64,000 bases of DNA from an uncultured Actinomycetota bacterium (lineage in GTDB: Bacteria > Actinomycetota > Actinomycetes > Jiangellales > Jiangellaceae), in contig CAWFXV010000003.1 in NCBI GenBank assembly GCA_963819885.1, forward strand, positions 4,372 to 68,371, in the 5' to 3' direction. How positions within the stretch are numbered: the first letter of the stretch is position 1; the number at the start of each line of letters is the position of its first letter. The notes beneath the pieces are model-generated. The model had not been told where the DNA came from. It saw nothing but the letters and a program-made list of their open reading frames with translations, and searched no databases. The translations under genes were made by a program, and so were the position numbers. Shown one piece after another: positions 36,176 through 41,718 of this stretch.

Positions 36176-36871
36176 TCACCGTTCGGGTCGGATGTTCTGG
36201 TTGAGATGGAAGACGTTGTCCGGGTCGTAACGCCGTTTGAGCATGGCGAGACGGGCGAGCTTGCCGGCCGGGTATGCCCGGCGCACACCGGTTTCCCCCT
36301 CGTCGGCGAGCACGTTGACGTAGACGCCGCTCGCGAAAGAGCTCGACGGCGGCGCCGAACCGGCGGGCCGCCCCGACGCGCTGGTCGTCCTCGGCCGGGT
36401 CGGTCCAGCCGGTGAGCGGCCGACGAACTCCACCAACGTGCTGCGGTGGCTGAACGCGCTGTACGTTATCGAAGACGTTGCGGCGATCGCGGCGCCATAA
36501 GCCTTGCAGGGATCCGTTCGGTAGTCGCATCCGGTCTGCGCCAGGATCGGAGTTCCCCCTAGGGACAAGAATGCGTCGATGAGCGGCGTCAGAGAGTTCG
36601 GACAGGAAGTGACCCTTGAAATACCGTCGCAGACGCGGCCTGGGCGGTGCGCGGACTCGTCGTCCATGGTCTGCAGCCGCAGATAGCAGACAACTCCTCC
36701 AGCCCGCTCGGCCAGCGGCGGGCCGAGGCTGGCGACAATCGGCAGCATCTGGCGGCCTTCATCTGGATCGCCCACCCAGACGAAGCCCAGGCTCGCCAGC
36801 GTCCGGTTCCGCAGCTGTGGCTGCATGACCGCCACGCAGCGGGCGGAGCGGGTGACGTCGAGCAAAGTCAA
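36176..36871 (-). pseudogene. C-terminal remnant of a BBE/FAD-linked oxidase, truncated and frameshifted
   Basis: ...[17 protein letters not shown]...[11 protein letters not shown]...[10 protein letters not shown]...[49 protein letters not shown] parallels the C-terminal half of the 22678..24094 gene. No FAD-binding N-terminal half is present. Confidence 0.7.
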
Positions 36872-36899
36872 TGGCGGCTGATCATCTGAACTCCGTCCA

Positions 36900-37475
36900 C
36901 TACGGGCGGTAGGTCGCGATCAGGACGCCGGTCGTCGTCGTCACGCTGTCGACGAGGTGAAGGGTGCTGAAGGCACCGTCGGGAAAGAGCCGGCGACCCG
37001 AACCCAGGATGAGGGGGTGGATCATCAGCAGGTACTCGTCGATGAGCTGCCGGCGGATCAGCGTCTGAGCGAGCTCTCCGCTGCCCATCACGCCGATATC
37101 CGGGCCCGGCTGCTTCTTGAGCTCCTTGACGGTCTCGGCGGCATCGCCTTTGAGCAGGATGGAGTTGCTCCAGGGAAGCGGCTCGGTGAGCGTCCTCGAG
37201 ACGACGTACTTCTCCGCGTTGTTGAGGACGTCGGTGTACGGATTGTCCTTCTGGTCGGGCCAGAAGCCGTAGAAGTCCGCATAGGTTCGCCGGCCGAAGA
37301 GCAGCGATCCATCCCGGGCCATTCCCTCCGCCATCGCCTTCCCCATGACCTCGTCGTTGTCGGGAATCGCCCAACCGCCGTGCGCAAACCCACCCCGGGT
37401 GTCCTCGTCGGGCCGGCCGGGAGCTTGCATGACGCCATCTAGGGTCAGGTGCTCAATGACCGCAAGCTTTCTCAT
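36900..37475 (-). CDS. dihydrofolate reductase-like (RibD C-terminal domain) family protein
   Basis: [20 protein letters not shown]...[11 protein letters not shown]...[47 protein letters not shown]. Confidence 0.85.
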
Positions 37476-37637
37476 CCATCGCTCCTTTCGTCAGACGCGC
37501 CGGGCGCTGCGCCGGCGTCTCCTCTGCTCTGCAGGTTCTCCCACATCGGTGAACTGCTCGATACATCGTCACGGATCTGATGTCAGCGGGTCTTGAACGA
37601 TTGCTCACCGGTGCGGGTCCGCAAGGTGCGGCGACGG

Positions 37638-38381
37638 TCACCCAAGGTTCCGGTCGGCATAGACCTTCATCGCGTCTCGAACGAGCGCTGCGGTGCCCTC
37701 ACCGTGCTGGTCGTAGTTCGCCATGAAGCGCGCGTCGGTGACGTACATCTCGCCGAGGCCGACGAGGTATTCCCGGGTCGGCGCCGATGTGATCGACAGC
37801 CAGTCGACCTGACGTGCGGTGATGGCTTGTACCTGTTCGCTTTCGGGTGCCAGCCCAGCGCGCTGCGCTCGGCCGTAGTCCGCAGCGATCTCGCGCTGCT
37901 GGCGCTGGAAGGCTGCCCTGTCTTCGGCGGACAACGATCGCCACCAGCGGTCACCTGCCTCGTAGGCCTCCCTTCCCCACCGCTCGGTGACTTCCTGCTC
38001 GTACTGGGTGTGATCGAAGCCGTCGAACGCCTCGGCTGGCATCAGTTGCTCACCTCTCTCGATCTTGTGCAAGGTTCCCTTTATCGATTGGATCTGCCGC
38101 CCGATGCGTTCGCGCTCGGCCTCCAGCAGGTCCAAGTGGGTGCGCAGGGCAGCTACGGTGTCCCGCCCACCCTCGAGGACCTGTGCGATTGCCGGCAGGC
38201 CGAGGCCCAGCTCCCGCAGCAGCAGGATCTGCTGCAACCGCACCAGAGAATTCTGGTCGTAATAGCGGTAACCGTTTCCACCGGTCCGGCTGGGCTCGAG
38301 CAATCCCAGCTGACCGTAGTGGCGCAGGGTGCGGCTCGTCGTGCCGGCCGCCCGCGCGATCTCCTGAATCGACCACTCCAC
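37638..38381 (-). CDS. MerR-family transcriptional regulator with C-terminal TipAS-type ligand-recognition domain
   Basis: 247 aa, GTG start. N-terminal winged HTH IQEIARAAGTTSRTLRHYGQLGLL..GYRYY, a coiled-coil dimerisation helix, then a TipAS-like domain (FDHTQYEQEVTERWG...LGEMYVTDARF...). The protein contains no cysteine. Confidence 0.88.
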   Translation of the reverse strand: MEWSIQEIARAAGTTSRTLRHYGQLGLLEPSRTGGNGYRYYDQNSLVRLQQILLLRELGLGLPAIAQVLEGGRDTVAALRTHLDLLEAERERIGRQIQSIKGTLHKIERGEQLMPAEAFDGFDHTQYEQEVTERWGREAYEAGDRWWRSLSAEDRAAFQRQQREIAADYGRAQRAGLAPESEQVQAITARQVDWLSITSAPTREYLVGLGEMYVTDARFMANYDQHGEGTAALVRDAMKVYADRNLG

Positions 38382-38391
38382 CGATATCGCC

Positions 38392-38422
38392 TTGACCTTG
38401 ACGCAACGTCAAGATTTAGCCT
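38392..38422 (+). promoter_or_regulatory. MerR-type promoter: -35 TTGACC, 19-bp spacer containing a perfect dyad, -10 TAGCCT
   Basis: TTGACC (38392..38397), 19-nt spacer (38398..38416), TAGCCT (38417..38422). The dyad CTTGACG-CAA-CGTCAAG spans 38397..38413. The ATG of the L11 paralog lies 9 nt after the -10 box, which implies a leaderless or near-leaderless mRNA. Confidence 0.6.
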
Positions 38423-38431
38423 ACCAGAATC

Positions 38432-38860
38432 ATGTCGCCCACCCAGCGGGTTGCCGCCGTCATCACCATCCAGCTCGAGGCCGGGCAGGCCAACATGGCC
38501 AAGGTGGGCCAGGCCCTCGGCCCGCACGGGATCAACCTGGTCGAGGTCGTCCGCAGCTATGACGCAGCCACCGCGAACCAGCGCGGGGAGATCGTCCCAG
38601 CGGTCGTCACCATTGACGAGGACCGGTCGTTCTCCCTCGTCACCAAGACCCCACCAACCTCTGCGTTGCTCCGCCAGGCAGCCGGACTCACCAAAGGCGC
38701 CCCACGCCCCAACGGTGTCCCGGTCGCCACGTTGACCCGAGCCCAGGTCCGTGAGGTTGCCCGGCGCAAGCTGCCCGATCTGAACACCGATGACCTGGAT
38801 GCGGCTGAGAAGACCGTCGCCGGCACGGCTCGTTCCATGGGAATCGCGATCGCCGGCTGA
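38432..38860 (+). CDS. ribosomal protein L11 (uL11) paralog with a divergent, proline-less N-terminal domain
   Basis: 142 aa, colinear with bacterial L11. C-terminal rRNA-binding domain motifs are retained (DRSFSLVTKTPPTSALL, DLDAAEKTVAGTARSMGIAI). The N-terminal domain reads IQLEAGQANMAKVGQALGPHGINL where canonical L11 has AG.ANP.PP.GPALGQ.G.N. The Lys-rich N-terminus is replaced by MSPTQR. The gene is not in a nusG-rplK-rplA context. Confidence 0.85.
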   Translation: MSPTQRVAAVITIQLEAGQANMAKVGQALGPHGINLVEVVRSYDAATANQRGEIVPAVVTIDEDRSFSLVTKTPPTSALLRQAAGLTKGAPRPNGVPVATLTRAQVREVARRKLPDLNTDDLDAAEKTVAGTARSMGIAIAG

Positions 38861-39121
38861 GCGCGACGTCGACTTCGTTGGGGAATCGCGGCCGTGAGTC
38901 AGGGCCGCCTGCGGAGCGGCGATACCTCGGATCGGTCCTGGTTTGGATGGTTTGTGGAACCGCTCGCCGTGCCAATTCAAACACCCGTGCCCTAGATGCG
39001 GGTCAAGTCAGGCATATTGACACGCAGTGATCACCGCGGTACGAAGCATCGGGGCGACGTCGACCTAGCCGGGGCCGGCGAGTCGCACCGAACAATCGGC
39101 AGGCGCGAGGGGTGGGTGTCG

Positions 39122-41718
39122 ATGACACGCAGGTTCGTGGCAATGCTGGCCGTTCTTCTTGCCCTCCCGATCTCGATGGTGGCGGTTTCGCCCGCCCAGG
39201 CGGATGTGGTGCCGCCGTGGTGCGGCGATCCGGTTCCCGACGCGGCGGAGAACCTCCCCGACGGCACTGACCCCAGCGATCCGCCCGGCAGCTTCCCCCA
39301 CATCCCGTACTACGCCATCCGCTGCACCCTCGAGGACATCGTGGCGTCGAGCCAGGGACGGATGAGCCTGGAGGTCATGGGTCAGTCGGCGCTGGGCCGT
39401 GACCTCTTCCTCGTCACCGTCAACGCGCTGGACACCGTGCAGCAGCGGAAGGACTTCCAGGCCTGGCAGCAGGTGCGGAAGGTCGCGCTGACCGACCCGG
39501 TTCGCGGCCAGGAACTGCTCCAGTCCTACGGGGACAACGTGAAGGTCCCGCTCTACATCCAGGGCGCCATCCACGGCAACGAGTACGAAGGGGTCGAGGC
39601 GATCTTCGAGACGCTGGAGAGACTTGCCACGACGCCGTACGGGGCGGACCCCGAGGTCGACGCCGTCCTGGACCACACGGTCCTGCTGTTCAACGTGATC
39701 CAGAACCCGGACGGCAGGGTCGCCGGTACCCGCGCCAACGGCAACGGCTTCGACCTCAACCGCGACTTCATGACGCAGTCGCAGACCGAGACCCGCGCCT
39801 CGGTGGCGGTAATGCAGAAATGGCTGCCGCCGGAGGTCCTCGACCTGCACGGCTACGTCACGCCCACGCTCATCGAGGCGACGACGAAGCCGCACAACCC
39901 GAGCATCGACTACGACCTGTGGCTCAAGTGGAACCAGCCGCGCATCGACGCGAACGAGGCCGCCCTGGCGGCGCTCAACTTCGACGTCACCCGGCCGATC
40001 AACGACTGGTGCTCCGACGGGAGCCAGCCCCCGCCAGGCGGGATCTGCCCGGACGGTCAGCCGCCGGGCCCAGCCGTCGCCGAGGGCTGGGACGACTGGG
40101 GCCCGTTCTACACGCCGATGTACGCCCAGCACGTAGGGCTGAACGGGTCGACGGTGGAGATGTGCACGCGAGACACCGACTGCGCCGTCCCCGGTACGAC
40201 GCCGGCCGCCCTGGGCCGGCTGGGGTCGCGGATCATCCAGGAGACCGTGGTGTGGTCGAGCCTGCTCTTCGATCTCGAGAACCGGAACGAGCTCCTCTTC
40301 GACGAGGTCGAGCGCTACCGCCGCGGCGTCGCGAACGAGCCGCGGCCGCCGTGCTGTGAGCCTCCGTTCGACGTCGACAACAACTGGATGGCGGAGTTCC
40401 CCACCGCCTACATCGTGCCGATGGGTAGCGGACAGCGCAGCGAGCCCGAGGCGAACCGGCTGGTCGACTGGCTGCTCGCCAACGGCATCCTGGTCGACCA
40501 GCTCAAGCAGGCCTACACCTTCGACGGCGTGACCTACCCGGCCGGCTCGTACGTCGTCCTCATGAACCAGGCCCACCGTGGGCTCGCCGACACGGCCCTC
40601 GGCATCGGCGCCGACATCTCCGAGGACATCAGCATCCTCTACGCACCGCCGGCGGCGTGGAGCCACGGCTACCTCTGGGGTGCCGACGTGGTCCGGGTTC
40701 CGGCATGGGCACGACGTTCGCGCCGCAGACCAACCGGATCCTCAAGGCGAGCCACCTGCTCGGTGGCGTGGAGCCAGGCCCAGCTACCGGCTACGCCCTG
40801 AAGATCGACTCGCCGACGGCGGTGCGCACACTCAACGCGCTCATGGACGAGGGGCTCACGCTCGAGCTGGCGCTGGCGCCGTTCACCTCCGCCGGCGGCG
40901 GCACGCTGCCGACCGGGAGCGCGATCTTCGCCGCCGACGCGGCGACCAAGGTCGGCTCGCCTCGATCGGCCGCGCGAACGACGTGTGGTTCCACCGCGTT
41001 GGTACGTCGGCACCGCCGACCGAGCCGATCGACCGCATGCCGCGCGATCATGGTGCTGACCGGTGCCCTCAACCAGGACGTGTGGTCGCTGCAGAACCTG
41101 GGCTTCACGCCGGAGTTCAAGTCGACGGCCCAGCTGAACTCCGCACCCCAGGACCCGCTGCCGGACTTCGACGTCATCTGGAACACCGGCGGCTTGGCCG
41201 ACTGCGGCACAACCTCGCCACGGCGCGGGCACGCCTGACGTCCTTCTTCGCAGCCGGCGGCGGCTACATCGGTGCTGGAGCGAACGGTGCCAACTTCCTA
41301 ACCGGCGGCGGCCTCGTGACCGGCCTGACGGCCGCCGCTGTGCCCAGCCGGCACCGGACGTCAGCGGCATCGTCTACTGGGACAACGTCGGCGGCGCGGC
41401 AAGCCCGATCACCGGCGCGAGTCCCGGCCCGGGACACGGCGATCATGGACCCGCCCACCTGGTTCACCGCGGTTCCCGGCGACGATGAGCGTCGACGGGC
41501 GGTTCCCGACGGCGATCTCGCCGACGTCCTCGGATCGGGCTTGTGGCCGGATGGACGCCCAGTCCGCCTCGGCGCCCGGCTCGGCTGTCATCGCGCACGG
41601 GACGACGACCGCTGGAACGGCGCGGGCAACGGTCTTCGCGATGAACCCGCTGTATCGAGCCGACCCCGAGCGGGAGTGGTCGATGGCCGGCCTGGCAGCC
41701 TACTGGGCCGACCAGTGA
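39122..41718 (+). pseudogene. secreted M14-family metallocarboxypeptidase; the C-terminal third is riddled with frameshifts
   Basis: Signal peptide MTRRFVAMLAVLLALPISMVAVSPAQA. The M14 catalytic region is intact (IQGAIHGNEYEG, NPDGR, NRDF, LDLHGY). After about 40690 the homology continues only by hopping among the 40657, 40578 and 41485 frames, with at least 6 shifts. It ends ...TVFAMNPLYRADPEREWSMAGLAAYWADQ*. Confidence 0.75.

What the first reader, a model, noticed from the sequence alone, without database searches (positions are those of the whole stretch)
38382..38431. Shared 50-bp control region: 19-bp-spacer promoter with a perfect 7-3-7 dyad and two apparently leaderless divergent genes
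Between the GTG of the MerR gene (38381, minus) and the ATG of the L11 paralog (38432, plus) lie only 50 bp. They contain -35 TTGACC, a 19-nt spacer, -10 TAGCCT, and a perfect dyad CTTGACG-CAA-CGTCAAG (38397..38413) inside the spacer. A 19-20 bp spacer with a dyad operator between the hexamers is the hallmark of MerR-family activator promoters (DNA-distortion mechanism). The -10 box ends 9 nt before the ATG, so there is no room for a Shine-Dalgarno sequence. The regulator's GTG is likewise only about 10 nt from the -35 box. This implies leaderless transcripts in both directions from overlapping promoters, as in classic merR/merT.
Basis: partly seen in the sequence, partly recalled or inferred. 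Interest (0 to 1): 0.6.

Follow-up and report, generated by a model that had tools for sequence, protein, structure and literature searches.

The report
MerR-type promoter for spare L11 gene
The 50-bp gap holds a standard antibiotic-sensor (TipA/MerR-type) promoter that turns on a second, proline-less copy of ribosomal protein L11 with almost no mRNA leader; the promoter is ordinary, the gene it controls is the unusual part, and the regulator gene itself is probably not leaderless.

Summary
TTGACC, a 19-nt spacer, TAGCCT and the perfect 7-3-7 dyad occur together once in the window, and the dyad occurs once in the 3.63-Mb genome. The regulator is TipA-class (MerR HTH + TipAS). Its operator sits in the same register as the tested tipA, mta and skgA promoters.

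Thirteen independent L11-paralog loci all keep exactly 19 nt between the hexamers, a TAnnnT box, and 6-9 nt to the start codon with no Shine-Dalgarno. A MerR-type promoter driving a leaderless (here perhaps 0-3-nt leader) L11 paralog is therefore well supported, although no transcription start could be mapped.

The claim that the regulator is also leaderless is not supported. No -10 lies at leaderless distance from its GTG. Relatives with longer gaps have a second MerR-type promoter, a 20-30-nt leader and a strong SD. The three short-gap loci (window included), plus locus L042, instead carry a mirrored extended -10 (TGnTAnnnT, 38426-38418 minus). This predicts a ~30-nt leader starting inside the operator.

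Verdict: a new member of a known promoter class with an unusual target. Within this scan, only a note on this same window covers it.

The parts
37638..38381 (-). TipA-class regulator gene (247 aa; MerR HTH residues 4-70, TipAS residues 127-241; no cysteine)
   Evidence: Pfam gives TipAS at 6e-33 and MerR_1 at 3e-17. The closest solved structures are SkgA 7CLA and Lmo0526 3QAO, full length. The start position is conserved as GTG or ATG before EWSIQ(E/D)IA in 9 orthologues. None of the 7 orthologues translated in full has a cysteine.
38382..38431 (.). 50-bp shared control region
38392..38397 (+). -35 box TTGACC of the L11-paralog promoter
   Evidence: TTGA is invariant in 13 of 13 loci. The same hexamer occurs in pmta and pskgA.
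38398..38416 (+). 19-nt spacer
   Evidence: The spacer is exactly 19 nt, with no gaps, in 13 of 13 aligned loci.
38397..38413 (.). Operator dyad CTTGACG-CAA-CGTCAAG, centre 38405
   Evidence: the repeat finder I3 reports 100% complementarity. It is unique in the genome. TGAC(G/A)-N3-CGTCA is present in 11 of 13 paralog loci. The ACG-N3-CGT core and its register are shared with the ptipA, pmta and pskgA probes.
38417..38422 (+). -10 box TAGCCT of the L11-paralog promoter
   Evidence: T, A and the final T are invariant in 13 of 13 loci.
38429..38432 (+). Predicted transcription start zone for the L11 paralog (A38429 = 7 nt after the -10 T, giving a 3-nt leader; or A38432, leaderless)
   Evidence: This is inferred from the -10 position. 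The gap to the start codon is 6-9 nt in 13 loci. It has not been measured.
38432..38860 (+). L11 paralog (142 aa), second L11 gene of the genome, lacking the proline-rich thiopeptide-contact segment
   Evidence: Pfam finds both L11 domains. The canonical rplK lies elsewhere, next to nusG and rplA, at 54% identity. The paralog reads AGQANMA-KVGQALGPHG where the canonical protein reads AGQATPAPPVGPALGQHG. dN/dS against orthologues is 0.12-0.26.
38418..38426 (-). Mirrored extended -10 TGGTAGGCT (TGnTAnnnT), the candidate promoter of the regulator gene
   Evidence: The motif is present in exactly the 3 short-gap loci plus L042, and absent from the other 9 loci. The TAnnnTA symmetry matches the bidirectional-promoter geometry of PMC10268837. 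Inference only.
38390..38393 (-). AAGG, a weak Shine-Dalgarno candidate 8 nt before the regulator GTG (reverse complement of the CCTT at the -35 box)
   Evidence: Read from the sequence. AAGG or AGGGG sits 6-14 nt before the start in the 3 short-gap loci.
38040..38060 (-). Internal SD-like GAGAGAGGTGAG plus ATG (Met114), a candidate start of a TipAS-only short isoform
   Evidence: The ATG is conserved in 10 of 10 orthologues. The rare AGA codon (1.9% of Arg codons genome-wide) is used in 7 of 7 orthologues that have Arg at this position. tipA is known to give two isoforms from two starts (PMC7762955).

Best explanation
The 50-bp gap holds one TipA-class, MerR-type activator promoter. The dimeric regulator encoded at 37638-38381 binds the CTTGACG-N3-CGTCAAG operator inside the over-long 19-nt spacer. 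When loaded with its ligand it realigns the -35 and -10 boxes so that RNA polymerase transcribes the L11 paralog. The ligand is most likely a thiopeptide or another drug acting at the L11/GTPase centre.

That mRNA starts at the ATG or 1-3 nt before it (38429-38432) and is translated without a Shine-Dalgarno sequence.

The regulator gene is not leaderless. It is most likely transcribed from a mirrored extended -10 (TGGTAGGCT, 38426-38418, minus strand) that shares the TAnnnTA core with the L11-side -10. That start, near 38410-38411, lies inside the operator. It gives a ~30-nt leader with a weak AAGG ribosome site.

Binding of the regulator, or of polymerase in the L11 orientation, would then hinder regulator transcription, as at merR/merT.

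Shown: the sequence elements, their uniqueness, their conservation, and the domain content of both genes. Inferred: binding, ligand, activation, both start sites, and autorepression.
For: - All elements are at the stated coordinates.
- The hexamer pair with the 19-nt spacer occurs once in the window (0.16 expected) and coincides with the only operator match. The operator is unique in the genome, and there is only one TipAS gene.
- The regulator has a MerR HTH plus TipAS and is a full-length homologue of SkgA and Lmo0526.
- The operator register equals that of ptipA, pmta and pskgA: TTGACC + YTnACG-N3-CGTnA. The dyad centre is 8 bp from the -35 box, which is the MerR rule.
- All 13 L11-paralog loci have a 19-nt spacer, a TAnnnT box and 6-9 nt to the ATG or GTG. 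Eleven of 13 have a TipAS-MerR neighbour.
- At 74 other sites with the same -35 plus operator, 41 have a start codon 6-8 nt after the -10. The other 30 have 13-92-nt leaders, nearly all with an SD.
- Regulator side: long-gap relatives have a second 19-nt-spacer promoter, a leader and a GGAGG. Short-gap loci lack it and, with L042, are the only ones with TGnTAnnnT on the minus strand: 4 loci with the motif against 0 of 9 others.
- The symmetric -10 geometry is described in PMC10268837.
- No Rfam family matches the region.
Against: - No transcription start or binding data exist.
- The 9-nt gap in the window and in L287 lies just outside the 6-8 nt seen at 41 other promoters of this class. The transcript may therefore carry a 1-3-nt leader, and its translation efficiency is unknown.
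- The mirrored promoter has no recognisable -35 box, and its SD candidate (AAGG) is weak.
- The four loci with TGnTAnnnT are related, so 4 against 0 of 9 overstates independence.
- Apo TipA-class proteins are reported to bind DNA poorly (PMC7762955), so autorepression without ligand is doubtful.
- The regulator has no cysteine, unlike S. lividans TipA, which binds thiopeptides covalently. The ligand is a guess from the target gene.
Confidence: 0.6

Rival explanations
1. One reading: both genes are leaderless. In this view the regulator's GTG at 38381 is the 5' end of its mRNA, transcribed from a promoter overlapping the L11-side promoter.
For: Only 10 nt lie between the GTG and the -35 box, and there is no strong SD. 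In one distant relative (L008/L250) a different MerR-family regulator does have a TAAAGT box 9 nt before its ATG, inside the L11-side spacer. The layout therefore exists elsewhere.
Against: No TAnnnT-like hexamer lies 6-9 nt upstream of the GTG in the window, L287 or L048. Using the same operator on the minus strand would place the -10 at AAGGCG. Orthologous regulators elsewhere are clearly leadered, with GGAGG. A conserved AAGG or AGGGG sits 6-14 nt before the start in the short-gap loci.
Confidence: 0.1
2. The L11 side works as described, but the regulator is transcribed from some other promoter, for example one inside the first 100 bp of the L11-paralog coding region. In this view the TGnTAnnnT symmetry is a by-product of descent.
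For: The mirrored promoter lacks a -35 box. The consensus scan found no sigma-70-type site in 38000-39100 with 16-18-nt spacers, so any regulator promoter must be non-canonical. The loci with the motif are related.
Against: The motif is kept with three different -10 sequences (TAGCCT, TACGGT, TACCGT) while A-N-C-A after the box is retained. It is absent from all 6 TipAS-linked loci that have a good second promoter.
Confidence: 0.2
3. The dyad is a plain repressor operator, or an RNA hairpin or terminator, and is not an activator site. In this view the 19-nt spacer is incidental.
For: The palindrome would also fold in RNA. Apo MerR proteins do repress.
Against: The spacer is exactly 19 nt in 13 of 13 loci, even where the dyad sequence differs (L008, L012). 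The 80 genome sites examined with the same -35 plus operator were consistent with this layout, though the motif search itself fixed only part of the spacer. No co-directional gene runs into the dyad for it to terminate, and there is no T-run terminator or Rfam match. The same register occurs in promoters where activation has been shown.
Confidence: 0.05

Closest known systems
Streptomyces lividans tipA promoter / TipAL-TipAS
   Same: Both have a MerR HTH plus a TipAS regulator. The operator lies directly after the -35 box inside an over-long spacer, with an ACG-N3-CGT core (ptipA is TTGCAC CTCACGTCACGTGAG...). Both have a conserved internal ATG with its own SD, suggesting a TipAS-only isoform.
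   Different: tipA activates its own promoter. In the window, the one operator faces a different gene (the L11 paralog) and the regulator is divergent. The regulator has no cysteine, so covalent thiopeptide capture is impossible. The operator arms differ (TTGACG against CTCACG).
Bacillus subtilis Mta / Caulobacter SkgA promoters (TipA class)
   Same: The -35 box TTGACC is identical and the operator register is the same (pmta is TTGACC CTAACGTTGCGTGAT; pskgA is TTGACC CTCACGCCACGTCAG). SkgA is the best full-length structural homologue at 2.6e-33.
   Different: Their targets are efflux pumps or katG-related genes, not a ribosomal protein. Their transcripts are leadered as far as is known (from memory).
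Tn501/Tn21 merR-merT(PAD) control region
   Same: Both have divergent, partly overlapping promoters that share one dyad operator inside a 19-bp spacer (PMC11049809). The predicted regulator start lies within or near the operator, which allows autorepression.
   Different: The mer transcripts are not leaderless, the sensor is a metal site, and the HTH/operator sequences are unrelated.
Bidirectional promoters with a symmetric -10 (Warman et al. 2021; PMC10268837)
   Same: The TAnnnTA core pairs -11A and -7T reciprocally. The predicted starts at 38429 (+) and 38411 (-) are 18 bp apart, which is the modal spacing reported.
   Different: Here one direction is a MerR-dependent 19-nt-spacer promoter and the other is an extended -10 promoter. 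No start sites have been mapped.
Thiopeptide-immunity L11 copies (TclQ/TclT of B. cereus; plasmid L11 in staphylococcal micrococcin clusters; Actinokineospora L11)
   Same: The window's gene is an extra or variant L11 with changes at thiopeptide-contact residues. P25 and Q29 (D. radiodurans numbering) are changed in the window's paralog (P25Q, Q29P). They are also changed in the S. aureus plasmid copy (GTVLGP) and in the persiathiacin producer (P21V, P25K, Q29P; PMC11731312).
   Different: The window's gene is not in a biosynthetic cluster. No YcaO, LanB-type dehydratase or TSNR methyltransferase was found in the 97.9%-complete genome (the LanB search rang in no control genome). It is only 44% identical to the staphylococcal copy. 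It is under a drug-sensor promoter rather than cluster-linked.

Membership tests
MerR-type activator promoter (DNA-distortion class) | Over-long 19-20-bp spacer between -35 and -10 | tested here: met
   The spacer is 19 nt (38398-38416) and exactly 19 nt in 13 of 13 related loci.
MerR-type activator promoter (DNA-distortion class) | Dyad operator inside the spacer, centre 7-8 bp from the 3' end of the -35 box | tested here: met
   The centre at 38405 is 8 bp from 38397.
MerR-type activator promoter (DNA-distortion class) | Cognate MerR-family regulator encoded next to it | tested here: met
   Pfam MerR_1 and MerR hits. The regulator is adjacent in 11 of 13 loci as TipAS-MerR, plus 1 other MerR.
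MerR-type activator promoter (DNA-distortion class) | Regulator binds the dyad and activates on ligand binding; a 2-bp spacer deletion mimics activation | not testable with these tools
   This needs EMSA or footprinting and reporter assays.
TipA class (TipAL/TipAS minimal drug-sensor system) | N-terminal MerR HTH plus C-terminal TipAS domain | tested here: met
   TipAS at 6.1e-33 covering profile positions 1-117 of 117.
TipA class (TipAL/TipAS minimal drug-sensor system) | Second, internal start giving a TipAS-only isoform | tested here: inconclusive
   Met114 ATG is conserved in 10 of 10 orthologues, preceded by a purine-rich SD built with the rare AGA codon. There is no protein evidence.
TipA class (TipAL/TipAS minimal drug-sensor system) | Reactive cysteine for covalent thiopeptide binding (S. 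lividans TipA) | tested here: not met
   There is no cysteine in the window's protein or in 6 orthologues. This feature defines S. lividans TipA itself, not the whole class; whether Mta and SkgA also lack it was not checked here (from memory).
TipA class (TipAL/TipAS minimal drug-sensor system) | Positive autoregulation from its own operator-bearing promoter | tested here: not met
   The window has a single operator facing the L11 paralog. Long-gap relatives do have a second, regulator-facing operator promoter.
Leaderless mRNA | -10 box 6-9 nt before the start codon, with no Shine-Dalgarno | tested here: met
   This is met for the L11 paralog (9 nt). It is not met for the regulator.
Leaderless mRNA | Mapped 5' end at the start codon | not testable with these tools
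Bidirectional promoter with symmetric -10 | TAnnnTA core so that -11A and -7T pair reciprocally | tested here: met
   TAGCCTA at 38417-38423, and TGnTAnnnT on the minus strand.
Bidirectional promoter with symmetric -10 | Divergent start sites about 18 bp apart | not testable with these tools
   The predicted starts are 38429 and 38411 only.
Thiopeptide-immunity L11 paralog (TclQ type) | Extra L11 copy with substitutions at thiopeptide-contact residues | tested here: met
Thiopeptide-immunity L11 paralog (TclQ type) | Encoded within a thiopeptide biosynthetic cluster | tested here: not met
   No cluster genes lie nearby, and no YcaO, Lant_dehydr_N or TSNR_N was found in the genome. The Lant_dehydr_N search rang in no control genome, so that negative is weak.
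Thiopeptide-immunity L11 paralog (TclQ type) | Confers thiopeptide resistance | not testable with these tools
   This needs MIC assays.

The most novel reading that the evidence does not exclude
The short-gap loci may be a one-site, drug-flipped bidirectional switch. Without drug, RNA polymerase would use the shared TAnnnTA core in the regulator direction, through the extended -10. Drug-loaded TipA-class regulator on the operator would realign the 19-nt-spacer promoter and turn polymerase towards a leaderless, thiopeptide-insensitive L11, while shutting off its own gene. In a non-producer this would give sensor-controlled replacement of an antibiotic's ribosomal target. Sister loci use two back-to-back activator promoters and hence positive feedback.
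Probability: 0.3. Interest if true: 0.7.

Novelty: new member of a known kind. Interest (0 to 1): 0.4.

Why it matters
The promoter itself adds one more well-conserved example to the TipA/MerR class and to actinobacterial leaderless genes. What makes it worth a bench test is its target.

The target is a second L11 that lacks the residues thiopeptides contact. A drug-sensor-type regulator controls it, in a genome where no thiopeptide biosynthesis genes were found. If confirmed, this would be inducible target replacement for a ribosome-directed antibiotic, and it would give TipA-class regulators a defined, mechanistically meaningful regulon member.

The contrast between one-operator loci (mirrored -10, probable negative feedback) and two-operator loci (positive feedback) within one orthologous family is a compact natural experiment in promoter architecture.

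Tried and rejected
- The sigma-70 consensus scan (16-18-nt spacers) found nothing in 38000-39100. That is expected for a 19-nt spacer and says nothing about the regulator promoter.
- The search for related loci with the whole protein or a whole-protein alignment returned canonical rplK genes only. An N-terminal fragment alignment found just four species-representative genomes with the paralog.
- 60 relatives were searched, and only one other genome (G016) carried the paralog.
- The plasmid search found no close relative, with the best hit at 54%.
- The second TGACGCAACGTCA in the genome (C32:196743) lies at the end of rpmG, has no promoter-like boxes, and was judged a chance match.
- Using the same operator for a minus-strand MerR-type promoter was rejected, because the -35 would be TAAATC and the -10 AAGGCG.
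- An RNA-element reading was rejected, since Rfam gave no match at E<=1.
- Structure prediction of the paralog was not run, because it would not bear on the control region.

Full report
**Observation.**
Reading 37800-39100 and listing ORFs confirms every coordinate in the finding.
- The regulator ORF (37638-38381, minus) starts with GTG at 38381. The L11-like ORF (38432-38860, plus) starts with ATG at 38432.
- The 50-bp gap contains TTGACC (38392-38397), a 19-nt spacer, TAGCCT (38417-38422), then ACCAGAATC before the ATG.
- The repeat finder returns the perfect 7-3-7 dyad at 38397-38403 / 38407-38413.
- TTGAC-N20-TANNNT occurs once in the 64-kb window (0.16 expected from shuffles). That site coincides with the only TGACG-N3-CGTCA match at up to 1 mismatch.
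- In the whole 3.63-Mb, 67.6% GC assembly the 17-bp dyad is unique. The only other TGACGCAACGTCA sits at the stop codon of rpmG without promoter boxes.

**The two genes.**
- Pfam assigns the regulator a MerR HTH (residues 4-70) and a complete TipAS domain (127-241, 6e-33).
- Its best solved relatives are the full-length TipA-class proteins SkgA (7CLA) and Lmo0526 (3QAO), then MtaN and TipAN/TipAS.
- It is the only TipAS gene in the genome.
- The downstream gene has both L11 domains. It is a second copy, because the canonical rplK lies on another contig between nusG and rplA and is 54% identical.
- The paralog reads AGQANMA-KVGQALGPHG where the canonical protein reads AGQATPAPPVGPALGQHG. It therefore lacks the prolines, and has P25Q and Q29P in D. 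radiodurans numbering.
- Those positions contact thiostrepton and nosiheptide, and they are altered in the persiathiacin producer (PMC11731312).
- A staphylococcal plasmid L11 inside a micrococcin-type cluster shows changes at the same two positions (GTVLGP).
- The paralog family is under purifying selection, with dN/dS of 0.12-0.26.
- No YcaO, LanB-type dehydratase or TSNR methyltransferase was found in the 97.9%-complete genome (the LanB search rang in no control genome). The organism therefore does not look like a producer.
I agree with it but concentrate here on the control region.

**Comparison with characterised promoters.**
The probes used for TipAL, Mta and SkgA binding assays are given in PMC7762955:
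- TTGCAC-CTCACGTCACGTGAG (TipAL)
- TTGACC-CTAACGTTGCGTGAT (Mta)
- TTGACC-CTCACGCCACGTCAG (SkgA)
- TTGACC-TTGACGCAACGTCAAG (this window)

The window's sequence has the same register: -35 box, one pyrimidine, then a dyad with an ACG-N3-CGT core. The dyad centre (38405) is 8 bp from the 3' end of the -35 box. That is the spacing used to define genuine MerR sites within 19-20-bp spacers (PMC5045206). The 19-bp spacer and DNA-distortion mechanism are established for this family (PMC9909328; PMC11049809).

**Conservation on the L11 side.**
- A protein search found a family of proline-less L11 paralogs at 65-89% identity, mostly in soil metagenomes and uncultured Actinomycetota MAGs.
- The paralog is patchy. 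Among 60 relatives only one other genome has it, and three same-genus genomes show only the canonical copy.
- I recovered 13 distinct loci.
- Aligned from the -35 box to the start codon, all 13 have TTGA at the -35, exactly 19 nt of spacer without a single gap, and T-A-n-n-n-T at the -10.
- The distance to the start codon is 6 nt (2 loci), 7 nt (5), 8 nt (4) or 9 nt (2). The start codon is ATG in 12 and GTG in 1.
- Eleven have the TGAC(G/A)-N3-CGTCA operator and a TipAS-MerR gene upstream. In one of these (L013/G016) the regulator lies about 900 bp away, behind an inserted ORF.
- L008 has a different MerR-family regulator and a different dyad. L012 has an ArsR-type neighbour and a third dyad. 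Both still have the 19-nt spacer.
- The 9-nt gap of the window recurs in L287, an independent metagenome contig with the same RibD_C neighbour. It is therefore real and not a homopolymer error.

**The wider promoter class.**
These were mostly Actinobacteria, with some Firmicutes.
- In the 80 loci fetched, the motif drives TipAS-MerR genes (30), ABC ATPases (14), other MerR genes (6) and others.
- Of 74 evaluable sites, 41 have a long ORF starting 6-8 nt after the hexamer. The other 30 have 13-92-nt leaders, nearly all with GGAGG-type sites. None falls at 9-12 nt.
- Leaderless layout is thus the commonest form of this promoter class in Actinobacteria. Leaderless mRNAs are frequent in this phylum (from memory: Cortes 2013, Shell 2015).
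- The window sits one nucleotide beyond the usual range. A start at A38429, 7 nt after the -10 T, would give a 3-nt leader. A start at A38432 would be strictly leaderless.

**Regulator side.**
- For a leaderless GTG, a -10 would have to lie 6-9 nt upstream. The hexamers there are CAAGGC, AAGGCG or TCAAGG in the window and similarly unsuitable in L287 and L048.
- In loci with 87-156-bp gaps the regulator has its own promoter: a second operator within a second 19-nt spacer, facing the regulator. An example is L291, which reads TTGACT-TTGACGCTACGTCAACATT-TAGCGT. It is followed by a 20-30-nt leader with GAGGAGG. That is the tipA-like autoactivating arrangement.
- The window, L287 and L048 (gaps of 50, 48 and 53 bp) have lost or never had this second promoter.
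- Exactly these three loci, plus L042 whose second promoter has poor hexamers, carry A-N-C-A directly after the L11-side -10. The minus strand therefore reads TGnTAnnnT (window: TGGTAGGCT, 38426-38418). None of the other nine loci does.
- This is an extended -10 promoter sharing a symmetric TAnnnTA core with the L11-side -10. It matches the geometry described for bacterial bidirectional promoters, where -11A and -7T pair reciprocally and starts lie 18 bp apart (PMC10268837).
- It predicts a regulator start at about 38410-38411, inside the right operator arm. The leader would be about 30 nt and would end in AAGG, 8 nt before the GTG. That AAGG is the reverse complement of the CCTT at the -35 box.
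- This layout mirrors merR/merT, where divergent, partly overlapping promoters share one operator. It would give negative rather than positive feedback.
- It remains an inference. The four loci are related, the promoter has no -35 box, and apo TipA-class proteins are reported to bind DNA weakly.

**Other checks.**
- No Rfam family matches 37500-39200, and no terminator-like site is present.
- The regulators linked to L11 paralogs have no cysteine. Any thiopeptide binding would therefore be non-covalent, unlike S. lividans TipA.
- The literature searches I ran found L11 paralogs only inside thiopeptide clusters, or altered L11 in a producer. They found no report of a TipA-class regulator controlling an L11 gene.
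- Apart from notes on this same window, the scan's earlier findings hold nothing similar.

**Verdict.**
As a control region it is a new member of a well-known class. Its interest lies in the target gene and in the one-operator versus two-operator variants within one orthologous family.

Noticed in passing
window 38040-38060 (minus strand): There is an in-frame ATG (Met114) at the start of the TipAS domain. It is preceded by GAGAGAGGTGAG, built with the rare AGA codon (1.9% of Arg codons genome-wide). ATG and purine run are conserved in 10 of 10 orthologues, and L291 has a perfect GAAGGAGGTGAG. This suggests a TipAS-only short isoform, as in S. lividans tipA.
   Followed up: partly
L291, L007, L010, L045, L288, L290 (regions upstream of the L11 paralog): Long-gap relatives carry two back-to-back MerR-type promoters, each with a 19-nt spacer and its own operator. 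One drives the leaderless L11 paralog and one drives the leadered regulator. In L290 the second operator is TTGACA-TGA-TGTCAA, a symmetric change on both arms.
   Followed up: partly
L008 / L250 3950-4003: In a 10-Mb Actinomycetota MAG the L11 paralog is paired with a different 348-aa MerR-family regulator that has no TipAS domain. Its ATG lies inside the 19-nt spacer (dyad GTCTCC-N7-GGAGAC), and a TAAAGT box sits 9 nt upstream of it. In that locus both genes do look near-leaderless.
   Followed up: partly
L012 3915-4003: This L11 paralog lies next to an ArsR/HTH_20-type gene rather than a MerR gene. It still sits behind TTGACC, 19 nt and TAGCGT, but with a different small dyad (CCAGC-C-GCTGG). 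The regulator for this promoter is unknown.
   Followed up: no
L293 (S. aureus plasmid NZ_CP077881.1) 5995-6420: An L11 copy sits inside a micrococcin-type thiopeptide cluster (YcaO, lantibiotic dehydratase C-terminal domain, thiazolyl peptide precursor). It keeps PAPPVG but reads GTVLGPAG, so it changes the same two positions (P25, Q29) as the window's paralog.
   Followed up: partly
L134, L135, L141, L146, L158, L191, L201, L204, L209 and others: The same -35 plus operator drives ABC-transporter ATPase genes in Micromonospora, Actinoplanes and related genera. In these the hexamer at 19 nt reads CCATGC (better read as CATGCT with a 20-nt spacer), and the ATG follows 7-8 nt later. This is a leaderless efflux branch of the same regulon type.
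   Followed up: no
genome contig C32:196743: This is the only other TGACGCAACGTCA in the genome. It overlaps the stop codon of rpmG, upstream of a MaoC/HadA-like gene, and has no promoter-like boxes at MerR spacing. It is probably a chance match.
   Followed up: yes
window 36176-37475 and L048, L287, L288, L290, L045: The BBE/FAD-oxidase and RibD_C genes next to the regulator recur beside the regulator-L11 pair in several metagenome contigs. The genes downstream of the L11 paralog differ each time (M14 peptidase, MGMT, toxin-antitoxin, transposase). The pair behaves as a small mobile or recombining unit.
   Followed up: no
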